8,016 bases of DNA from a virus (lineage: Duplodnaviria > Heunggongvirae > Uroviricota > Caudoviricetes): positions 1 to 8,016 of IMG/VR virus record IMGVR_UViG_3300029181_000038; one strand, given 5' to 3'. Below the pieces are notes generated by a model that was not told where the DNA came from, did not search any database, and saw nothing but the letters and a program-made list of their open reading frames with translations. Below are positions 1 through 7,281 of the stretch, in pieces (position 1 is the stretch's first letter; the number at the start of each line of letters is the position of its first letter). The translations under genes and the position numbers were made by a program.

Positions 1-1093
1 TTGAGTCGATACCGATGTATGTCACGTTGTACTGTTCGGTCAGTTTTTTGATGGCGTCAGCCTGGGCGCGGAAGTCCATCCCGCGCCACTGGTGACGTTC
101 AAGAATGCGAAACTTACCGCCTGGCACGGCTGGCGGTGCCACCACCACGCATCCGGCGCTGTCGCCGTTCTGCGTACCTTTTGCCGGGTCATAACCGATC
201 CACACTTCGCGCCAGCCAAACGGGCGCAGGGCCAGTGCATGAAAGTCGCTCCAGACTTCCCAACTGTCCACCATGCACGCCTGCAGCTCGCTGAGCGGGA
301 ACACGGACGCGAGATCGTCCACAAACTCGCACATCAGCAGGTTCTGGTATTCGTCCGGGCTGTACTCCATGCGCAACTGATCGAGGTCGAAAAGGTTACA
401 TCCGCCGCGCACTGCATCTTCCACGGTGACTATCTGGCGGTATTGCCCGTCTGCGCACAGCAGGCCGGGGGCCAGATTGCTGTGGGACAGGTCGATGTCC
501 ACCTTATCGGCTTTGTTGCGCCCACGGTTGAACAGCGCACCAGACCAGAACGGATAAGCACTGTGTGTCAGGCTGGATGGCGTGGAAAAATAGGTTTGTC
601 GCCATTTTTTGTGAATAGCCATACCGGAAGCCACTTTGCGCAGCTCCTGGAATTTCGGTATCCAGAAATATTCATCCAGATACAGGTTGCCGTGATAACT
701 CTGGGCAGTGCGGGCATTGGTGCCGAGGAAGTAAAGCGTGGCCCCGTTAGGAAGCACCATCGGATCGCCTTTCAGCTCCACCTCGACTTCTTTGGCGAAG
801 TCGATGATGTATTGCTTAAAGACGTGAGCCTGTGCCTTACTGGCAGAAAGGAAAATCTGGTTACGTCCGGTAAGCAGGGCGTCAATCAGGGCTTCACGGG
901 CAAAGTAAAAGGTCGCGCCGATCTGGCGTGACTTCAGCAGATTACGGATGCGGTTGGTTTTTCCAGCTTCCCACCAGTGGCGCTGGTAGTTGAACATGGA
1001 GGAATGGAAGATTTCTTCCAGCTTCTCAATCTGTTCATCGGTGAAAACATTCTTTTCCGGCTGACGGCGCGGCCCTTTGTTGCGGTTCCTGCC
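1..1093 (-). pseudogene. P: Phage terminase large (ATPase) subunit, P2 gpP-like; 3' end runs off the left window edge; 5' end appears truncated (no in-frame start between the stop at 1094-1096 and the first ATG at 997-995)
   Basis: Minus-strand frame (codons at 2-4, 5-7, ...) is open across the whole region and translates to ...QPEKNVFTDEQIEKLEEIFHSSMFNYQRHWWEAGKTNRIRNLLKSRQIGATFYFAREALIDALLTGRNQIFLSASKAQAHVFKQYIIDFAKEVEVELKGDPMVLPNGATLYFLGTNARTAQSYHGNLYLDEYFWIP..., which reads as a terminase ATPase domain. It is not in the ORF track because it has no stop inside the window. The listed + ORF 92-931 is its antisense. Whether the gene is truly truncated or simply starts at Met997 is uncertain. 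Confidence 0.6.
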
Positions 1094-1565
1094 TTATCTC
1101 GCCTGGGCGTTCTCTGTGGATCGCTGGGACGAGAGCTGGACAGAAAGCGTCAAGCGCCAGGTGGTGAAGGATGCTTTTTATATTCATCAGCATAAAGGGA
1201 CCACCAGTGCCGTGCGGCGGGTGGTGGAGCCGTTCGGCTTTCTGATCCGCATTATTGAGTGGTGGCAGACCGGAGAGGCACCGGGCACGTTTCGCCTGGA
1301 TATCGGCGTGCAGGACCAGGGCATTACTGAAGATACCTATCTGGAACTTGAGCGACTGATAAGCGATGCCAAACCATGTAGCCGCCACATGATCGGCATG
1401 TCCATCAATCTGCAGACCAGCGGCCCGCATTGGGTGGGAGCCGCCAGCTATCTTGGCGAAGAAATCACGATCTATCCGTATATCAACGAAACGATTATTT
1501 CCGGTGGCACCGCGCATGAAGGCGGGGCGGTCCATGTTATTGACACAATGAGAGTGAATCCATGA
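1077..1565 (+). CDS. I: Baseplate assembly protein, P2 gpI-like, probably N-terminally truncated (frame opens at 1065; only a TTG start at 1077)
   Basis: Translation MLRFLPYLAWAFSVDRWDESWTESVKRQVVKDAFYIHQHKGTTSAVRRVVEPFGFLIRIIEWWQTGEAPGTFRLDIGV... matches the P2 tail protein I family as I remember it. Its stop overlaps the H start (ATGA at 1562-1565), the usual gene order upstream of tail fiber H. Confidence 0.65.
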   Translation: MLRFLPYLAWAFSVDRWDESWTESVKRQVVKDAFYIHQHKGTTSAVRRVVEPFGFLIRIIEWWQTGEAPGTFRLDIGVQDQGITEDTYLELERLISDAKPCSRHMIGMSINLQTSGPHWVGAASYLGEEITIYPYINETIISGGTAHEGGAVHVIDTMRVNP

Positions 1566-2983
1566 GCACAAAATTTTATACCCTGCTGACGGATATTGGC
1601 GCGGCGAAACTTGCCAGCGCCGCCGCGCTCGGTGTGCCGCTAAAAATTACCCATATGGCGGTGGGCGATGGCGGCGGAGCATTGCCGACGCCGGACGCAA
1701 AGCAGACGGCACTGGTAAATGAGAAACGCCGGGCTGCGCTGAATATGCTCTATATCGACCCGCAGAACAGCAGCCAGATTATTGCTGAACAGGTGATCCC
1801 TGAAAACGAGGGCGGTTGGTGGATACGTGAAGTGGGCCTGTTTGATGAGTCAGGGGCATTGATTGCCGTGGGGAACTGCCCGGAAAGCTATAAACCGCAA
1901 CTGGCTGAAGGCAGCGGGCGTACCCAGACCGTGCGCATGGTGCTGATTACCAGCAGCACGGACAATATCACCCTGAAAATCGACCCTGCCGTAGTGCTGG
2001 CAACCCGCAAGTATGTGGATGACAAGGTACTGGAGCTGAAGGTGTACGTGGATGATCAGATGGCAAAACATCTTGCCGCACCGGACCCGCATTCACAGTA
2101 TGCACAGAAAGAAAGTCCGACGTTTACCGGGACACCAAAAGCGCCAACGCCAGCGGCAGGGAATAACACCACGCAGGTTGCGACCACCGCGTTTGTTCAG
2201 GCGGCACTGACGGCCCTTATTAATGGTGCTCCAGCCACGCTGGACACGCTAAAAGAAATAGCCGCAGCCATTAACAATGATCCGAATTTCAGTACCACCA
2301 TTAACAATGCGCTGGCACTGAAAGCGCCGTTGTCGAGTCCGGCACTCACCGGAACGCCAACAGCACCTACTGCGGCACAGTCGGTCAACAATACACAGAT
2401 TGCCACTACGGCTTTTGTGAAATCGGCGATTGCGGCAATGGTAGGTTCTGCACCTGCGGCACTGGATACACTGAACGAACTGGCGGCGGCGCTGGGGAAT
2501 GACCCAAACTTTGCCACGACAATGCTTAATGCACTGGCAGGTAAACAACCGCTGGACAATACGCTGACTAATTTGAGTGGAAAGGATGTAGCTGGTCTTC
2601 TCACATACCTTGGTTTGGGAGAAGCGGCAAAACGGGATGTGGGGACAGGGGAAAATCAGATACCGGATATCTCCAACGTTCCATTTACAAAAAACAATCC
2701 TCTTAATTTTGAGTTACCAGGAGGATTAATTCTGAAAGCCGGGTATGGAAAGCTGACAACGCAGTCCAGTATCTGGATTAATTTCCCTGCAGCATTCCCT
2801 AATGACTGTATTGCCGGAGGAGCTTTAAGTGCGGAAGAGAACACAAATGACTATGTATTTGCTCAAACTACATCACGCAAAGCAGGAGGATTAACTCTGG
2901 CGTTTTATCGTGGGGGCATTAGTCAGCCACCAACAGCCAATTCCAGAGAACTTTCTTTCTCGTGGTTTGCGATAGGATATTAG
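1562..2983 (+). CDS. H: Tail fiber protein, P2 gpH-like; constant N-terminal part (to ~2610) fused to variable C-terminal cassette Hv (2611-2983) in the current orientation
   Basis: 473-aa ORF; N-terminus MSTKFYTLLTDIGAAKLASAAALGVPLKITHMAVGDGGG... is the conserved P2-family tail-fiber N-terminal domain; internal tandem fibre repeats; translationally coupled to upstream I (ATGA) and downstream tfa. Confidence 0.92.
   Translation: MSTKFYTLLTDIGAAKLASAAALGVPLKITHMAVGDGGGALPTPDAKQTALVNEKRRAALNMLYIDPQNSSQIIAEQVIPENEGGWWIREVGLFDESGALIAVGNCPESYKPQLAEGSGRTQTVRMVLITSSTDNITLKIDPAVVLATRKYVDDKVLELKVYVDDQMAKHLAAPDPHSQYAQKESPTFTGTPKAPTPAAGNNTTQVATTAFVQAALTALINGAPATLDTLKEIAAAINNDPNFSTTINNALALKAPLSSPALTGTPTAPTAAQSVNNTQIATTAFVKSAIAAMVGSAPAALDTLNELAAALGNDPNFATTMLNALAGKQPLDNTLTNLSGKDVAGLLTYLGLGEAAKRDVGTGENQIPDISNVPFTKNNPLNFELPGGLILKAGYGKLTTQSSIWINFPAAFPNDCIAGGALSAEENTNDYVFAQTTSRKAGGLTLAFYRGGISQPPTANSRELSFSWFAIGY
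2598..2623. repeat. Left crossover site of invertible segment (gix/cix/hix-like 12-2-12 site) located inside gene H
   Basis: ttctcacatacc-tt-ggtttgggagaa. Its reverse complement ttctcccaaaccaaggtatgtgagaa is identical to the right site at 4437-4462 over the first 14 nt; the exact inverted repeat is 15 nt (2610-2624 vs 4436-4450). Half-sites fit the TTCTC..AAACC pattern of Gin-family recombination sites. Confidence 0.8.
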
Positions 2984-2984
2984 A

Positions 2985-3425
2985 ATGAGAATTTTTTTCA
3001 GTGCATCAACATTGTGGTTTTATGATGAAACTCGCAAAGAAGAATATCACAACGGTATTGGATGGCCAGATGATGCTATCGAAATATCAGATGATGAATG
3101 GAATAAATATACGCAAATTCCTCCTGATGGTTTTATATTAGGTGCCACCTCTCAGGGAAGACCTGCATGGATATTAATATCTCCGCCAGATAAAAAAATG
3201 GTTATGGATATTGCTGAAACTAAAAAACAGCAGTTAATTAGCCAGGCCAATGAATACATGAACAGTAAACAATGGCCCGGTAAAGCCGCTATTGGTCGTC
3301 TGAAAGGCGAGGAACTGGCGCAATATAATTTGTGGCTGGATTACCTGGACGCACTGGAGCTGGTTGATACCTCCAGTGCTCCAGATATTGAATGGCCTAC
3401 GTCTCCGGCAGTTCAGGCCAGATGA
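2985..3425 (+). CDS. G: Tail fiber assembly chaperone (Tfa, P2 gpG / Mu U-like), partner of the currently expressed Hv cassette
   Basis: 146-aa ORF starting 1 nt after the H stop (tag-a-atg) with AGGA 7 nt upstream; C-terminal motif LDYLDALELVDTSSAPDIEWPTSP is typical of Tfa-family chaperones. Confidence 0.85.
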   Translation: MRIFFSASTLWFYDETRKEEYHNGIGWPDDAIEISDDEWNKYTQIPPDGFILGATSQGRPAWILISPPDKKMVMDIAETKKQQLISQANEYMNSKQWPGKAAIGRLKGEELAQYNLWLDYLDALELVDTSSAPDIEWPTSPAVQAR

Positions 3426-3999
3426 CATCCGGCGCTGTGCTGGTATCTGTTGCCGTCACCGCGTCAATGTAATCCAGCACAGCGTTAAGCCGGGTTGTTT
3501 CTGCCTGCGTCAGTTTACGTCCGGCCTGCAATTTCAACTGAATCAGACTGACGGAAGCCATTGCTGCATCAATTAGTGGCTGGCGCAGTGCTTCTGCCGC
3601 GTCTACTGCGGCATTATGCTGTGCCTCAGTATCTGTCACCCATTTCTCACCATCCCATTCATCGTATGGCGTTAACGGAGCGATAGTGGTCGTATTTTCA
3701 TGATAATCACCCGGACCTGTGATTTCTTTCGATTCTCCTGTTTCGGTGCTATAAACGATTTCACCGCGATGGTCTGGCACATATTCCCATGAGTTTAAAT
3801 CCATCGAACGGCAGATAGCATAACCCGCCTTATGTGTGCCAGGGGCATCTAAACAGGAATATGCAGGGATACCGACACCAATGGCAAGATATTCATTTGA
3901 AGTGGAAATATATTCCCGAGTTTCACCATCATAGTTATAGACGGTAATATTCCCCGCCTTCGTGGCAATAAGCTCGCTATTTAATACGGCGTTATCCAT
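3397..3999 (-). CDS. Alternative tail fiber assembly chaperone (tfa'), partner of the silent Hv' cassette
   Basis: 200-aa minus-strand ORF; C-terminal motif LDYIDAVTATDTSTAPDVIWPELPE parallels that of tfa; its ATG overlaps the Hv' stop (TAATG on the minus strand at 4001-3997); 3' end overlaps tfa convergently. Confidence 0.85.
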   Translation of the reverse strand: MDNAVLNSELIATKAGNITVYNYDGETREYISTSNEYLAIGVGIPAYSCLDAPGTHKAGYAICRSMDLNSWEYVPDHRGEIVYSTETGESKEITGPGDYHENTTTIAPLTPYDEWDGEKWVTDTEAQHNAAVDAAEALRQPLIDAAMASVSLIQLKLQAGRKLTQAETTRLNAVLDYIDAVTATDTSTAPDVIWPELPET

Positions 4000-4449
4000 T
4001 ATGCAGCCCTCACGATATAGTTAAATGCAATATTTCGTGGACGGGTTTCACTCCCGCCGGGGAGCTGAAAAGCGTTGATAATCCCACCGCTTGCCTGACT
4101 TATTCCATCCGTGTACAACCCGCCACCGGCACTGTCGCTGAGTGCAAATGTTTTTGATGGTGAACTGTTTGAAGCTGGCCCCCAGTATTTTAATGCGAGC
4201 TTTCTGACTTCATCACTCTGAATACTCAATAAAGCACGCCCTGTATCAATGCCGCGCCCATCATCCCAGCCACGAATAAACTCACCACGTAAATCAGGCA
4301 ATTTATTTGTCGGATAAGCCTTTGCCAGTTCCGGGTATTCTTCAGCAGAAAAAGCTGCACCGTTGCATTTCAGCCAGCCTGTCGGCGGAGTGGCTGAAGG
4401 CCATGGAACAGGGACACCAACAGGTAATGCCGAACCTTCTCCCAAACCA
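3999..4449 (-). CDS. Silent alternative tail-fiber C-terminal cassette (Hv'); no start or promoter of its own; would be fused in frame to the H constant region after inversion
   Basis: Minus-strand frame reads ...VGLGEGSALPVGVPVPWPSATPPTGWLKCNGAAFSAEEYPELAKAYPTNKLPDLRGEFIRGWDDGRGIDTGRALLSIQSDEV...NIAFNYIVRAA, which looks like a side-tail-fibre receptor-binding C-terminus. The GLGE codons sit on the crossover repeat in the same codon phase as LGLGE of H (2609-2623). The ORF-track start MMPVARYL at 4490 lies on or beyond the crossover site and is probably not used. Confidence 0.8.
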
Positions 4450-4462
4450 ACGTTTATGAAAA
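4437..4462. repeat. Right crossover site of invertible segment (gix/cix/hix-like), ~55 bp upstream of the invertase gene
   Basis: ttctcccaaacc-aa-cgtttatgaaaa; inverted copy of the site at 2598-2623; imperfectly palindromic around a central AA dinucleotide. Confidence 0.8.
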
Positions 4463-4517
4463 TGCAGAGATAACGGGCAACTGGCATCATCTCCGGTTTT
4501 TATTCAGGGGGATGCTC

Positions 4518-5084
4518 ATGCTTATTGGCTATGTACGCGTGTCAACAAATGACCAGAACACGGAATTGCAGCGTAACGCGCTGGAGTGCGCAGGATGCGA
4601 GCGGATTTTTGAGGATAAAATCAGCGGCACGAAGTCCGACCGACCGGGACTGAAAAAACTGCTCAGAACACTATCGGCAGGAGACACGCTGGTTGTCTGG
4701 AAGCTGGACAGGTTGGGGCGCAGTATGCGGCATCTTGTTACGCTGATAGAAGAGTTGCGCCAGCGTGGCGTGAATTTCCGAAGCCTGACTGACAGTATTG
4801 ATACCAGTACCCCAATGGGCCGTTTCTTTTTTCATGTCATGGGTGCCCTGGCTGAAATGGAACGCGAACTGATAGTTGAACGTACCAGGGCAGGGCTGGC
4901 TGCAGCTCGTGTTAAAGGCAGAGTAGGTGGACGCCGTCCTAAGTTGACCAGCGAACAGTGGGCACAGATTGGGCGTTTACTCGAGGCCGGAGAATCAAGA
5001 CAGCGTATTGCACTGATTTTTGATGTAGGCGTTTCTACCATTTATCGAAAATTTCCGGCAAATAAGAGCAATGAATCTCCCTGA
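4518..5084 (+). CDS. Site-specific DNA invertase, serine recombinase of the Gin/Pin/Cin/Hin family
   Basis: MLIGYVRVSTNDQNTELQRNALECAGCERIFEDKISGTKSDRPGLKKLLRTLSAGDTLVVWKLDRLGRSMRHLV...GRFFFHVMGALAEMERELIVERT...GGRRPKLT... with a C-terminal HTH (VGVSTIYRKF); catalytic Ser in the YVRVSTNDQ motif. Start chosen at ATG 4518 (AGGGGG at 4505-4510, 7-nt spacing) rather than the in-frame ATG at 4512, which sits too close to the SD. Confidence 0.93.
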   Translation: MLIGYVRVSTNDQNTELQRNALECAGCERIFEDKISGTKSDRPGLKKLLRTLSAGDTLVVWKLDRLGRSMRHLVTLIEELRQRGVNFRSLTDSIDTSTPMGRFFFHVMGALAEMERELIVERTRAGLAAARVKGRVGGRRPKLTSEQWAQIGRLLEAGESRQRIALIFDVGVSTIYRKFPANKSNESP

Positions 5085-5132: not shown

Positions 5133-5150
5133 TGTGTGAATAACGGTACA
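5133..5150 (+). promoter_or_regulatory. P2-type late promoter activator element (TGT-N12-ACA, Ogr/Delta-family binding site) upstream of FI
   Basis: tgt-gtgaataacggt-aca in the 142-bp FI upstream region, centred ~85 bp before the FI ATG; consistent with a -55-centred Ogr site and a ~30-nt leader. No strong -35 is visible, as expected for activator-dependent late promoters. Exact -10 not assigned. Confidence 0.5.
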
Positions 5151-5226: not shown

Positions 5227-6399
5227 ATGGCTCAGGATTACCACCACGGGGTGCGCGTTGTTGAAGTCAACGAAGGCACTCGATCCATTACTACGGTGAG
5301 CACCGCCATCGTGGGCATGGTCTGCACGGGCGATGATGCCGATGCAAAAATGTTCCCTCTTAATAAACCCGTGCTGATCACTGATGTGCTTACTGCCAGC
5401 GGTAAAGCGGGTGAGTCCGGTACGCTGGCCCGTTCGCTGGATGCCATCGCTGACCAGGCAAAACCCGTGACCGTTGTTGTGCGTGTGCCGCAGGGTGAAA
5501 CGGAAGACGAAACCACGACCAATATCATCGGCGCAGTGACTGCTGAAGGTAAAAAAACAGGTATGAAAGCCCTGTTATCTGCCCAGTCACAGCTCGGCGT
5601 TAAACCGCGCATTCTCGGCGTGCCAGGCCACGACACCAAGGCGGTAGCTACTGAGTTGCTGAGCATGGCGCAAAGCCTGCGTGGATTTGCTTACCTGTCA
5701 GCATATGGCTGCAAGACGGTACAGGAGGCGATCACTTACCGTGAAAACTTTAGCCAGCGCGAAGGGATGCTGATCTGGCCTGACTTTACTGGCTGGGACA
5801 CTGTGCTGAATGCCGAAGCAACGGCATATGCCACCGCCCGTGCGCTTGGTCTGCGCGCCAAAATTGACGAGCAAACCGGATGGCACAAAAGCCTGTCCAA
5901 CGTGGGCGTGAACGGTGTCACCGGAATTTCTGCAGATGTGTTCTGGGATCTGCAGGACCCGGCAACCGATGCAGGTCTGCTGAACCAGAACGACGTCACC
6001 ACGCTTGTGCGCAAGGATGGTTTTCGCTTCTGGGGTTCCCGCTGTCTGAGCGATGATCCGCTCTTTGCCTTCGAAAACTACACCCGCACGGCGCAGGTGC
6101 TGATGGACACGATGGCAGAAGCGCACATGTGGGCGGTGGACAAACCGCTGAACCAGTCGCTGGCCCGCGACATTATCGAAGGTATCCGCGCCAAAATGCG
6201 CAGCCTGGTCAGTCAGGGCTATCTCATTGGTGGTGATTGCTGGCTGGACGAGTCGGTGAACGATAAAGACACGCTGAAAGCCGGGAAGCTCACCATCGAC
6301 TACGACTACACGCCAGTGCCGCCACTTGAAAATCTGATGCTGCGCCAGCGCATCACCGATCAGTATCTGGTGAATTTTGCCAGCCAGGTCAGCGCGTAA
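5227..6399 (+). CDS. FI: Contractile tail sheath protein, P2 gpFI-like
   Basis: 390-aa ORF; [40 protein letters not shown]...[19 protein letters not shown]...[24 protein letters not shown] closely matches the P2 sheath protein as I remember it; RBS CAGGAGG at 5211-5217. Confidence 0.93.
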
Positions 6400-6408
6400 G
6401 GGGACAAC

Positions 6409-6924
6409 ATGGCTTTACCACGCAAATTAAAACATCTGAACCTGTTTAACGACGGGAACAACTGGCAGGGGATCGTAGAGTCGCTGACGCTGCCGAAATT
6501 CACCCGCAAATATGAGAAGTATCGCGGCGGCGGAATGCCAGGTGCAGTGGATGTGGATCTGGGGCTTGATGACAGTGCGCTGGACACAGAATTTTCCATT
6601 GGTGGTACTGAACTGCTGCTGTTTAAGCAGATGGGCAAAGCCACGGTGGATGGCATCCAGTTGCGCTTTACCGGCTCTATCCAGCGTGACGATACCGGGG
6701 AAGTGCAGGCCGTGGAGCTTGTGGTGCGTGGACGTCACAAAGAAGTTGACTCTGGTGAGTGGAAGACGGGCGAAAGCAACACCACCAAAGTGACCAGTAC
6801 CAACAGCTACGCGAAGCTGACCATCAATGGTGAGGTGCTCTATGAAGTGGACCTTATCAACATGGTGGAAATTGTGGACGGTGTGGACCTGATGGAAGCG
6901 CACCGCAACGCACTCGGCCTCTGA
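6409..6924 (+). CDS. FII: Tail tube protein, P2 gpFII-like
   Basis: 171-aa ORF 9 nt after FI with RBS AAGGGGA; MALPRKLKHLNLFNDGNNWQGIVESLTLPKFTRKYEKYRGGGMPGAVDVDLGLDD... fits the P2 tail tube family; conserved FI-FII order. Confidence 0.9.
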   Translation: MALPRKLKHLNLFNDGNNWQGIVESLTLPKFTRKYEKYRGGGMPGAVDVDLGLDDSALDTEFSIGGTELLLFKQMGKATVDGIQLRFTGSIQRDDTGEVQAVELVVRGRHKEVDSGEWKTGESNTTKVTSTNSYAKLTINGEVLYEVDLINMVEIVDGVDLMEAHRNALGL

Positions 6925-6935
6925 TGTATCTGAAC

Positions 6936-6953
6936 GGCGCGGAATGCCGCGCC
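6936..6953 (+). other. GC-rich hairpin (7-bp stem GGCGCGG/CCGCGCC, 4-nt loop) between FII and E; no following U-tract
   Basis: ggcgcgg-aatg-ccgcgcc seen directly, 12 nt after the FII stop. Not a canonical intrinsic terminator; could be an mRNA stability or processing element that affects the FII:E expression ratio. Confidence 0.3.
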
Positions 6954-6978
6954 AGAACCCAATTTACAGGACAGCAAA

Positions 6979-7281
6979 ATGAGCGATAAGCAGACTGAAA
7001 AGACCATTCAACTGGATACCCCCATCAAGCGCGGTAAAACAGAAATCACCGAAATTGTGCTGCGTAAACCGCAGTCTGGTGCGCTGCGCGGCACACGCCT
7101 GCAGGCCATTATGGATATGGATGTGAACGCGATGATGACCGTGATCCCCCGCATCTCCAGTCCGGCACTGACTGCACAGGAAATCGCAGAGATGGACCCG
7201 GCAGATCTCACAGCCATGTCGGTTGAGGTTGTCACTTTTTTGTTGAAGAAGTCGGTGCTTGCCGGTTTACCGACAGCCTGA
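6979..7281 (+). CDS. E: Tail assembly chaperone, P2 gpE-like (zero-frame product)
   Basis: 100-aa ORF MSDKQTEKTIQLDTPIKRGKTEITEIVLRKPQSG...; position between the tube gene and the tape-measure gene, as for P2 E and lambda G. Confidence 0.85.
   Translation: MSDKQTEKTIQLDTPIKRGKTEITEIVLRKPQSGALRGTRLQAIMDMDVNAMMTVIPRISSPALTAQEIAEMDPADLTAMSVEVVTFLLKKSVLAGLPTA

What the first reader, a model, noticed from the sequence alone, without database searches (positions are those of the whole stretch)
1060..1100. Probable deletion junction fusing the 5' region of terminase gene P to the 5' region of baseplate gene I
In P2 the leftward P gene and the rightward I gene are separated by roughly 10 kb (promoters, capsid genes O-N-M-L, lysis genes, tail completion genes R-S and baseplate genes V-W-J). 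Here the minus-strand terminase frame ends at the stop at 1094-1096 while the plus-strand gpI frame opens at 1065, so the two overlap with no intergenic region, no promoter, and no ATG for either. The prophage would lack capsid and most baseplate genes, and the H/tfa operon would have lost its native late promoter. Yet the invertase, both crossover sites and both cassettes look intact, suggesting a recent deletion or retention of the switch for some host benefit.
Basis: inference. Interest (0 to 1): 0.6.

Follow-up and report, generated by a model that had tools for sequence, protein, structure and literature searches.

The report
Deletion scar in a P2-like prophage
This is the scar of an 8.3-kb deletion that removed the head, lysis and baseplate genes from a P2-like prophage, an ordinary kind of prophage decay, although its tail-fibre inversion switch still flips and a second, unrelated prophage broke at exactly the same base.

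Summary
Window 1-1087 (minus strand) is a 5'-truncated terminase gene P. Window 1086-1565 (plus strand) is a 5'-truncated baseplate gene I. They meet at a 2-bp TT overlap (1086-1087) with no inserted bases. Measured on the intact CFT073 prophage, 8,305 bp are missing: the first 113 codons of P, the late promoters, genes O through J, and the first 42 codons of I. Homology to P2 gpP starts at residue 115 of 590, and to gpI at residue 44 of 176. No complete E. coli genome (5,426 searched) has this junction, while 1,082 records are intact across the site. Three independent metagenome assemblies carry the identical junction, so it is not an assembly artefact. Two of them hold the 1.8-kb tail-fibre segment inverted with 0 of 8,016 other differences, so the invertase has acted since the deletion. 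This is routine illegitimate-recombination decay of a prophage, and sibling remnants (P'-J', P'-T', P'-D', P'-lysozyme, O'-J') occur in other E. coli. One point is unexplained: strain UR21/11-869 has P broken at the very same base but joined to J, in a P sequence that looks independently derived. The retained left arm carries a SIR2-HerA defence pair.

The parts
1..1087 (-). P' : 5'-truncated terminase large-subunit (gpP) gene, which continues past the left edge of the window. The first 113 codons are missing. The longest ATG-initiated ORF starts at 997.
   Evidence: Window 1-1087 = CFT073 L003 6609-7695. 68% identity to P2 gpP residues 115-475. Hits Terminase_6N and Terminase_6C. In L004 the ORF is called as 445 aa.
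1086..1087 (.). Deletion junction: a TT dinucleotide shared by both parental sequences (2-bp microhomology), with no inserted bases.
   Evidence: P side ...GTTGCGGTT|GGCGAC, I side ...GGTCAGTTT|CCTGCC, window ...GTTGCGGTT|CCTGCC.
1094..1096 (-). Stop codon (TAA on the minus strand), encoded by gene-I sequence, that closes the terminase frame just upstream of the junction.
1086..1565 (+). I' : 5'-truncated baseplate/tail gene I. The first 42 codons are missing. The frame is open from 1065, with possible starts at TTG 1077 or GTG 1116.
   Evidence: Window 1086-1500 = L003 16001-16415. Homology to P2 gpI begins at residue 44 of 176. Tail_P2_I profile matched from position 38.
1562..2983 (+). Tail-fibre gene H (473 aa in this orientation). 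Its constant part ends at crossover site A.
   Evidence: Phage_tail_fib N-terminal domain, Gp53-like_C.
2598..2623 (.). Crossover site A (TTCTCACATACC TT GGTTTGGGAGAA) inside H.
   Evidence: (I1).
2985..3425 (+). Tail-fibre assembly gene (146 aa) paired with the currently expressed H C-terminus.
   Evidence: Caudo_TAP.
3397..3999 (-). Alternative tail-fibre assembly gene (200 aa), in the silent orientation.
   Evidence: Caudo_TAP. It is on the plus strand in L008.
3999..4490 (-). Alternative H C-terminal cassette (Collar domain), in the silent orientation.
   Evidence: In L008 it is fused to H to give a 499-aa product.
4437..4462 (.). Crossover site B (TTCTCCCAAACC AA CGTTTATGAAAA).
4512..5084 (+). 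Serine DNA invertase of the Cin/Gin/Hin/Pin type, with an intact ORF.
   Evidence: Resolvase 179 bits, HTH_7 59 bits. N-terminus reads ..IGYVRVSTNDQ.
5133..5150 (+). TGT-N12-ACA motif 77-94 bp upstream of the FI start, at the position expected for the Ogr-dependent late promoter pF, which the deletion spared.
   Evidence: The position is analogous to the P2 pF activator site. The function is inferred.
5227..7281 (+). Intact tail genes FI (sheath, 5227-6399), FII (tube, 6409-6924) and E (6979-7281). The tape-measure gene follows to the window end.
   Evidence: Lengths are the same as in CFT073.

Best explanation
A P2-like prophage of an Escherichia-type host lost 8,305 bp in a single illegitimate-recombination event between a TT inside gene P (codon 113) and a TT inside gene I (codon 42). 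The loss covers the 5' end of P, the divergent pP/pO promoters, capsid genes O-N-M-L, X, the lysis cassette, tail-completion genes R-S, the pV promoter, baseplate genes V-W-J and the 5' end of I. The element can no longer build heads, baseplates or lyse the cell, so it is a locked-in defective prophage. Its remaining genes are still intact ORFs: Q, H and the tail-fibre assembly genes, the invertase, FI, FII and E. The invertase-driven tail-fibre switch has continued to flip since the deletion. Shown: the junction, its endpoints, the missing gene set, its presence in several independent assemblies, and both inversion isomers. Inferred: that the deletion was a single step, that it was mediated by microhomology (slippage or end-joining), and that H and the assembly genes are now transcribed only by read-through, if at all.
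For: Endpoints and TT overlap. Gene content of the deleted interval. Protein-level truncations. Intact state in 1,082 E. coli records and 120 of 120 IMG/VR copies. A near-progenitor with intact P (L066) is 99.4% identical from cos to the breakpoint, with 0 differences in the last 500 bp. The identical junction occurs in independent assemblies L004, L007 and L008. Inverting window 2612-4448 reproduces L008 with 0 mismatches over 8,016 bases. Sibling deletions in the same prophage family also show only 1-2 bp or imperfect microhomology. No IS, repeat or filler lies at the junction. There is no significant hairpin at the P site (z = -0.29).
Against: An E. coli genome (UR21/11-869, L001) has P broken at exactly the same base but joined to J. 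A purely random illegitimate event would repeat that endpoint with probability of roughly 1 in 1,767, or 1 in 121 if only TT positions are counted. The two right-hand partner sites also share CAGTT(G/T)CCTGC at 10 of 11 positions, which is seen in about 1% of random site pairs. These hints of a non-random component are unexplained. The host genome and the rest of the prophage are not available, because the longest contig is 14.6 kb.
Confidence: 0.88

Rival explanations
1. Two-step (nested) origin. An ancestor first suffered the P'-J' deletion seen in UR21/11-869. A second deletion then ran from that junction into gene I, which would explain the shared left endpoint by descent.
For: The P endpoint is identical in L001 and the window. 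The SIR2-HerA cargo of the two elements is 99.8% identical. The L001 junction reads GCGGTTTCG and the I site reads CAGTTTCC, so a GTTT microhomology is available.
Against: The two P' segments differ at 38 of 1,087 positions. Each is far closer to intact P genes of another sublineage (6 and 4 differences), and they share no private alleles, even close to the junction. Any TTT- or GTTT-mediated second deletion predicts three Ts at the junction, and the window has two. The second deletion would still have to start exactly at the first junction.
Confidence: 0.06
2. Site-directed break. The P site (GCGGTT|GGCGAC) is a recurrent target of an enzyme, such as the element's own serine invertase acting on quasi-crossover sites, terminase nicking a pseudo-cos site, or a host nuclease. 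Deletions then start there and end at variable partners.
For: Two apparently independent deletions use the same TT. The invertase crossover core is also TT/AA. The deleted side begins GGCG, like the cohesive end GGCGTGGCGGGG of this lineage. The partner sites share a 10-of-11 motif.
Against: The half-sites flanking the P, J and I breakpoints match the element's own crossover half-sites at only about 5 of 24 positions, which is chance level (by eye from the sequences printed). The junctions carry no half of a genuine crossover site. The cos resemblance is 7 of 12 bases and rests on a common tetramer. None of at least 120 IMG/VR copies, and no species-representative genome or JGI metagenome contig, is broken at this base with a non-G next base. 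Other P-anchored deletions end at different bases (7138, 7637, 7725).
Confidence: 0.06
3. Assembly artefact. The P'-I' adjacency is a chimeric join made by a metagenome assembler between two parts of an intact prophage.
For: The only sources of this exact sequence are short-read metagenome assemblies.
Against: The identical junction occurs in three assemblies from different projects and assemblers (L004 in two samples, L007, L008), with 100% identical flanks. There is no repeat at the junction that could mislead an assembler, only 2 bp of overlap. Analogous junctions exist in finished E. coli chromosomes.
Confidence: 0.01
4. Native arrangement. This lineage naturally has a short P starting at Met997 and a short I, with no deletion.
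For: None was found.
Against: Searches show that both proteins lack conserved N-terminal parts. Searches show that close relatives (up to 99.4% identical) have full-length genes 8.3 kb apart.
Confidence: 0.005

Closest known systems
Defective (cryptic) P2-like prophages of E. coli formed by internal deletion
   Same: The phage family and the type of scar are the same. Finished E. coli genomes hold P'-J' (UR21/11-869), O'-J' (LP50-1), P'-T' (strain D2), P'-D' (about 100 genomes, e.g. KBN10P04869) and P'-lysozyme remnants. These also retain the cos-proximal cargo, Q and a 5'-truncated P.
   Different: This P'-I' endpoint pair is absent from all 5,426 complete E. coli genomes searched. It keeps the whole H/assembly-gene/invertase module and the F operon, unlike the larger P'-T' and P'-D' deletions.
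Invertible tail-fibre segments of P1 (Cin/C segment), Mu (Gin/G segment) and the defective prophage e14 (Pin/P segment)
   Same: It has a serine invertase next to a roughly 1.8-kb segment that carries alternative H C-termini and assembly genes, bounded by 26-bp imperfect inverted repeats with a 2-bp core. Both orientations are seen in nature. As in e14, the switch works inside a defective prophage. Inversion of the e14 P segment by PinQ has been reported to create a chimeric fibre protein that blocks T2 adsorption (PMC12529663).
   Different: Here the operon that the switch serves has lost its own late promoter and the baseplate to which the fibre would attach. No host phenotype is known.
The cos-proximal defence hotspot of P2-like phages (Rousset et al. 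2022, PMC9122126)
   Same: The retained left arm (outside the window, in L004) has SIR2 and HerA between the replication region and cos, plus a PIN_12 gene between cos and Q. This is the locus described as a hotspot of anti-phage systems.
   Different: The defence genes lie outside the 8-kb window. Their role in the persistence of the remnant is inferred and was not tested.

Membership tests
P2-like (Peduoviridae) prophage late region | gpP-type large terminase and gpI-type baseplate protein homologues | tested here: met
   68% identity to P2 gpP and 59% to P2 gpI. Pfam Terminase_6N/6C and Tail_P2_I.
P2-like (Peduoviridae) prophage late region | Conserved gene order Q-P / I-H-G ... FI-FII-E-T, and a P2-type cos | tested here: met
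   The gene order in the window and L004 matches CFT073 and P2 apart from the deleted block. The cos GGCGTGGCGGGGATACGAG lies in L004 at about 3835-3853.
Deletion by illegitimate (short- or no-homology) recombination | The two flanks are collinear with an intact relative, and the interval between them is absent without replacement DNA | tested here: met
   Window 1-1087 = L003 6609-7695 and window 1086 onward = L003 16001 onward. There are no extra bases.
Deletion by illegitimate (short- or no-homology) recombination | Only a few bases of homology at the join, with no IS element, long repeat or recombinase site | tested here: met
   2-bp TT overlap. No repeat family involves the junction. No significant hairpin.
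Invertase-mediated deletion at quasi-crossover sites (as described for Cin) | Matching 2-bp core at both partner sites | tested here: met
   TT at the P, I and J sites, and a TT/AA core in the genuine sites. A 2-bp match is weak evidence.
Invertase-mediated deletion at quasi-crossover sites (as described for Cin) | Recognisable similarity of the flanking 12-bp half-sites to the crossover consensus (TTCTCNCAAACC) | tested here: not met
   About 5 of 24 positions match for the P site and 2 of 12 for the I right half, which is chance level (by eye from the sequences).
Cin/Gin/Hin/Pin-type invertible tail-fibre switch | Small serine recombinase (Resolvase domain plus C-terminal HTH_7) adjacent to the segment | tested here: met
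   Window 4512-5084 hits Resolvase at 179 bits and HTH_7 at 59 bits.
Cin/Gin/Hin/Pin-type invertible tail-fibre switch | Inverted 26-bp crossover sites bounding alternative fibre C-termini and assembly genes | tested here: met
   Sites at 2598-2623 and 4437-4462. Cassettes identified.
Cin/Gin/Hin/Pin-type invertible tail-fibre switch | Both orientations occur | tested here: met
   L004 and L005 have the window orientation. L007 and L008 are inverted. The predicted isomer equals L008 with 0 of 8,016 mismatches.
Cin/Gin/Hin/Pin-type invertible tail-fibre switch | Fis-dependent recombinational enhancer | not tested
   No scan for Fis sites was run.
R-type tailocin (domesticated contractile tail) | A complete tail and baseplate gene set plus lysis genes, without head genes | tested here: not met
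   Baseplate genes V, W, J and the start of I, tail-completion genes R and S, X and the lysis cassette all lie in the deleted interval.
SIR2-HerA anti-phage system (in L004, outside the window) | Adjacent full-length SIR2 and HerA genes | tested here: met
   PADLOC HerA at 885 bits over 3-616 of 618, and SIR2 at 698 bits over 1-347 of 347. Defence activity was not tested.

The most novel reading that the evidence does not exclude
The base in gene P at which this deletion starts (GCGGTT|GGCGAC, codon 113) may be a genuine site-specific deletion hotspot in P2-like prophages. Under this reading, a directed break made by an as yet unidentified nuclease, recombinase or pseudo-cos cleavage repeatedly initiates rightward loss of the lethal late genes. 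That would drive domestication of these prophages while sparing their cos-proximal defence cargo.
Probability: 0.07. Interest if true: 0.55.

Novelty: new member of a known kind. Interest (0 to 1): 0.2.

Why it matters
On its own it matters little, because it is one more defective prophage. It is useful as annotation: the terminase and gpI ORFs here are pseudogene fragments, the element cannot form particles or tailocins, and H and the assembly genes have lost their late promoter. Three side results may be worth more. First, this lineage gives a natural example of a tail-fibre inversion switch that keeps operating after the phage has lost the ability to use the fibre. That is relevant to recent claims that such switches in cryptic prophages serve the host (PMC12529663). 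Second, the remnants of this prophage family consistently keep the defence-hotspot arm while losing the late genes, which fits the idea that the cargo is what selection preserves. Third, the double use of one breakpoint base is a small, testable hint of non-random prophage decay.

Tried and rejected
1. Invertase quasi-site deletion. The core TT matches, but the half-sites are at chance similarity and no genuine half-site lies at the junction. Rejected.
2. Pseudo-cos terminase nick. The lineage's cos is GGCGTGGCGGGGATACGAG, and the breakpoint shares only GGCG plus scattered bases (7 of 12). Not supported.
3. Hairpin-promoted slippage at the P site. Folding gives z = -0.29. Rejected.
4. Common descent of the window and L001 junctions. 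Distances and the lack of shared private alleles argue against it, and the T-count at the junction does not fit.
5. Pattern scans for 'P broken at this base' (P side followed by a non-G base). There were 0 hits in genome contigs, metagenome contigs and viral contigs. The positive control found at least 120 intact copies.
6. Searching the protein database for the antisense-P leader peptide, to catch other in-frame fusions. The first try was too short. The second returned only 3 tiny ORFs, probably because fusion proteins are hidden inside 90% clusters. Unproductive.
7. Regional clustering of endpoints in the 5' part of P. The control window showed other endpoints elsewhere, and the detection window limits the inference. 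No claim is made.
8. Tailocin reading. Rejected because the baseplate and lysis genes are gone.
9. A late promoter for I'/H. The only TGT-N12-ACA nearby (1032-1049) lies in antisense P, is also present in intact P, and is within chance expectation.

Full report
**Observation.** The minus strand of window 1-1096 translates as a stop codon (1094-1096) followed by an uninterrupted terminase large-subunit sequence. The plus strand is open from 1065 and reads into a gpI-like protein ending at 1565. A megablast of the whole window against 5,426 complete E. coli genomes showed that almost every intact P2-like prophage matches only from query position 1086 onward. That pointed to a breakpoint at that base.

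**Mapping the junction.** The intact prophage of E. coli CFT073 (L003) served as the reference. Window 1-1087 aligns to L003 6609-7695 at 96.8% identity, inside P (CDS 6268-8034, minus strand). Window 1086-1500 aligns to L003 16001-16415 at 98.8% identity, inside I (CDS 15875-16480). The parental sequences and the junction read as follows:

- P side: ...GTTGCGGTT|GGCGAC
- I side: ...GGTCAGTTT|CCTGCC
- Window: ...GTTGCGGTT|CCTGCC

The join is therefore a 2-bp TT overlap at 1086-1087 with no filler. L003 7696-16000, 8,305 bp, is missing. That interval holds:

- the first 113 codons of P and the pP/pO region;
- O, N, M, L, X, holin, lysozyme and lysA/B/C;
- R, S and the pV region;
- V, W, J and the first 42 codons of I.

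At the protein level, homology to P2 gpP begins at residue 115 of 590 (68% identity). Homology to P2 gpI begins at residue 44 of 176 (59% identity). Pfam Tail_P2_I is matched only from profile position 38.

**Is it real and is it unusual?** No complete E. coli genome has this junction. In contrast, 1,082 records are intact across the P site, and 120 of 120 sampled IMG/VR copies continue as normal P. The window is 100% identical to positions 6446-14461 of an ENA metagenome contig (L004). A look-up of the truncated I' product found the same junction in two further assemblies from other projects (L007 from a human gut sample, and L008). That excludes an assembly chimera. An intact-P relative (L066) is 99.4% identical to L004 from cos through PIN_12 and Q up to the breakpoint, with 0 differences in the last 500 bp. 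The deletion is therefore young relative to diversification of the phage group.

**Mechanism.** Nothing at the junction suggests a specialised process. There is no IS element, no repeat family and no significant hairpin (z = -0.29). The same prophage family shows a series of analogous scars in finished E. coli chromosomes:

| Junction | Strain | Left endpoint (L003) | Homology at the join |
|---|---|---|---|
| P'-J' | UR21/11-869 (L001) | 7695 | TT overlap |
| O'-J' | LP50-1 (L002) | 8349 | 1 bp |
| P'-T' | D2 (L130) | 7637 | AA overlap |
| P'-D' | about 100 genomes, e.g. KBN10P04869 (L129) | 7725 | imperfect short homology |
| P'-lysozyme | H215 | about 7138 | not examined |

All are illegitimate joins. 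Every remnant whose left arm was viewed except LP50-1 (window/L004, L001, L129, L130) keeps cos-proximal cargo, Q and a 5'-truncated P. I conclude that the window carries an ordinary microhomology-type deletion that converted a P2-like prophage into a defective remnant.

**Consequences.** The remnant cannot make heads or baseplates and cannot lyse the cell, so it is not a tailocin. The V operon promoter that normally drives I-H-G is gone. No sigma-70-like promoter appears on the plus strand near the junction. The only nearby TGT-N12-ACA (1032-1049) lies in antisense P and is within chance expectation. A TGT-N12-ACA at 5133-5150, 77-94 bp upstream of FI, sits where pF is expected. The F operon therefore probably keeps its late promoter. 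This last point is inferred.

**The switch still works.** The invertase ORF (4512-5084) hits Resolvase and HTH_7. The crossover sites are TTCTCACATACC TT GGTTTGGGAGAA at 2598-2623 and TTCTCCCAAACC AA CGTTTATGAAAA at 4437-4462. L004 and L005 have the window's orientation, and L007 and L008 have the segment inverted. Computationally inverting window 2612-4448 reproduces L008 with 0 mismatches over 8,016 bases. Since both isomers carry the same deletion scar and are otherwise identical, inversion has occurred after the deletion. A working fibre switch in a defective prophage has a classical precedent in e14. A host-protective role for such inversions has recently been reported (PMC12529663). Whether that applies here is untested.

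**Unexplained coincidence.** UR21/11-869 has P broken at exactly the same base as the window, again with a TT overlap, but joined to codon 6 of J. Common descent is not supported:

- The two P' segments differ at 38 of 1,087 positions.
- The window's P' is 6 differences from intact L066, and L001's is 4 differences from several other intact copies.
- There are no shared private alleles.
- A nested second deletion through the available GTTT microhomology predicts three Ts at the junction, where the window has two.

The chance of an exact repeat is of the order of 1 in 1,767, or 1 in 121 if restricted to TT positions. The J and I partner sites also share CAGTT(G/T)CCTGC at 10 of 11 positions, which is seen in about 1% of random site pairs.

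I tested three ideas for a directed break, and none is supported:

- **Invertase quasi-sites:** the half-sites are at chance similarity.
- **Pseudo-cos site:** only 7 of 12 bases match.
- **Hairpin at the P site:** none is significant.

Pattern scans for further cases found nothing in three collections. I therefore leave this as a flagged curiosity needing a proper census.

**Context outside the window.** L004 shows that the retained left arm carries DinI, a full-length SIR2-HerA pair (PADLOC 698 and 885 bits), cos, a PIN_12 gene, Q and P'. This is the cos-proximal defence hotspot described for P2-like phages (PMC9122126). The SIR2-HerA block is 99.8% identical between L004 and L001, and that identity ends exactly at cos. 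Q-P' is only 94% identical, which is a clear mosaic.

**Verdict.** The feature is a new instance of a well-known kind of event, and its interest is low. There are two modest extras: the post-deletion activity of the inversion switch and the repeated breakpoint.

Noticed in passing
window 1086-1087; L001 7086-7087 (NZ_OU342919.1): E. coli UR21/11-869 has gene P broken at exactly the same base (L003 7695, TT overlap) but fused to gene J. The two P' sequences look independently derived, with 38 differences and no shared private alleles.
   Followed up: partly
window 2598-2623 and 4437-4462; L007, L008: Both inversion isomers of the tail-fibre segment exist among otherwise identical metagenome contigs that carry the same deletion. 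Inverting 2612-4448 reproduces L008 with 0 of 8,016 mismatches.
   Followed up: yes
L004 512-3411 and 3981-5042 (left of the window): The retained arm carries a full-length SIR2-HerA defence pair, and a PIN_12 gene (no PADLOC hit) between cos and Q. This is the P2 cos-proximal defence hotspot.
   Followed up: partly
L004 1030-3861 vs L001 1-2832: The SIR2-HerA block is 99.8% identical between two elements whose Q-P' genes are only 94% identical. The high-identity block ends exactly at the cos site, which suggests cargo exchange with a boundary at cos.
   Followed up: no
L129 7191-7270 (NZ_CP026473.1) and about 100 other E. coli genomes: A widespread P'-D' remnant at the ybjL locus retains only cargo, Q, P', a D fragment and ogr. 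Its P endpoint is 30 bp from the window's. The join shows imperfect short homology (GG.TTTAA..CAGC).
   Followed up: partly
L130 7103-7182 (NZ_CP010137.1); H215 (NZ_CP076305.1); H214; H145: There are further remnant types: P'-T' (AA overlap), P'-lysozyme, and records in which portal and terminase fragments are rearranged or internally deleted. The last three were not examined.
   Followed up: partly
L003 14970-15010 and 15981-16021 (partner sites in J and I): The two right-hand partner sites share CAGTT(G/T)CCTGC at 10 of 11 positions within a few bases of the breakpoints. About 1% of random site pairs do as well.
   Followed up: partly
window 1032-1049 (+): A TGT-N12-ACA match (the Ogr-type activator motif) lies 37-55 bp left of the junction in antisense P. 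It is also present in intact P and is within chance expectation, so it is probably meaningless.
   Followed up: partly
window 1059-1074 (+): A terminator-like hairpin with a T-rich tail lies just before the junction on the plus strand. The number of such sites in the region is not above shuffled expectation.
   Followed up: no
whole window vs P2 (L006): The element is only about 67-75% identical to phage P2 at the DNA level. It belongs to the CFT073-type group of P2-like prophages, whose members L002, L003, L129 and L130 sit next to ybjL, and it has a 186-like cohesive end (GGCGTGGCGGGG...).
   Followed up: partly
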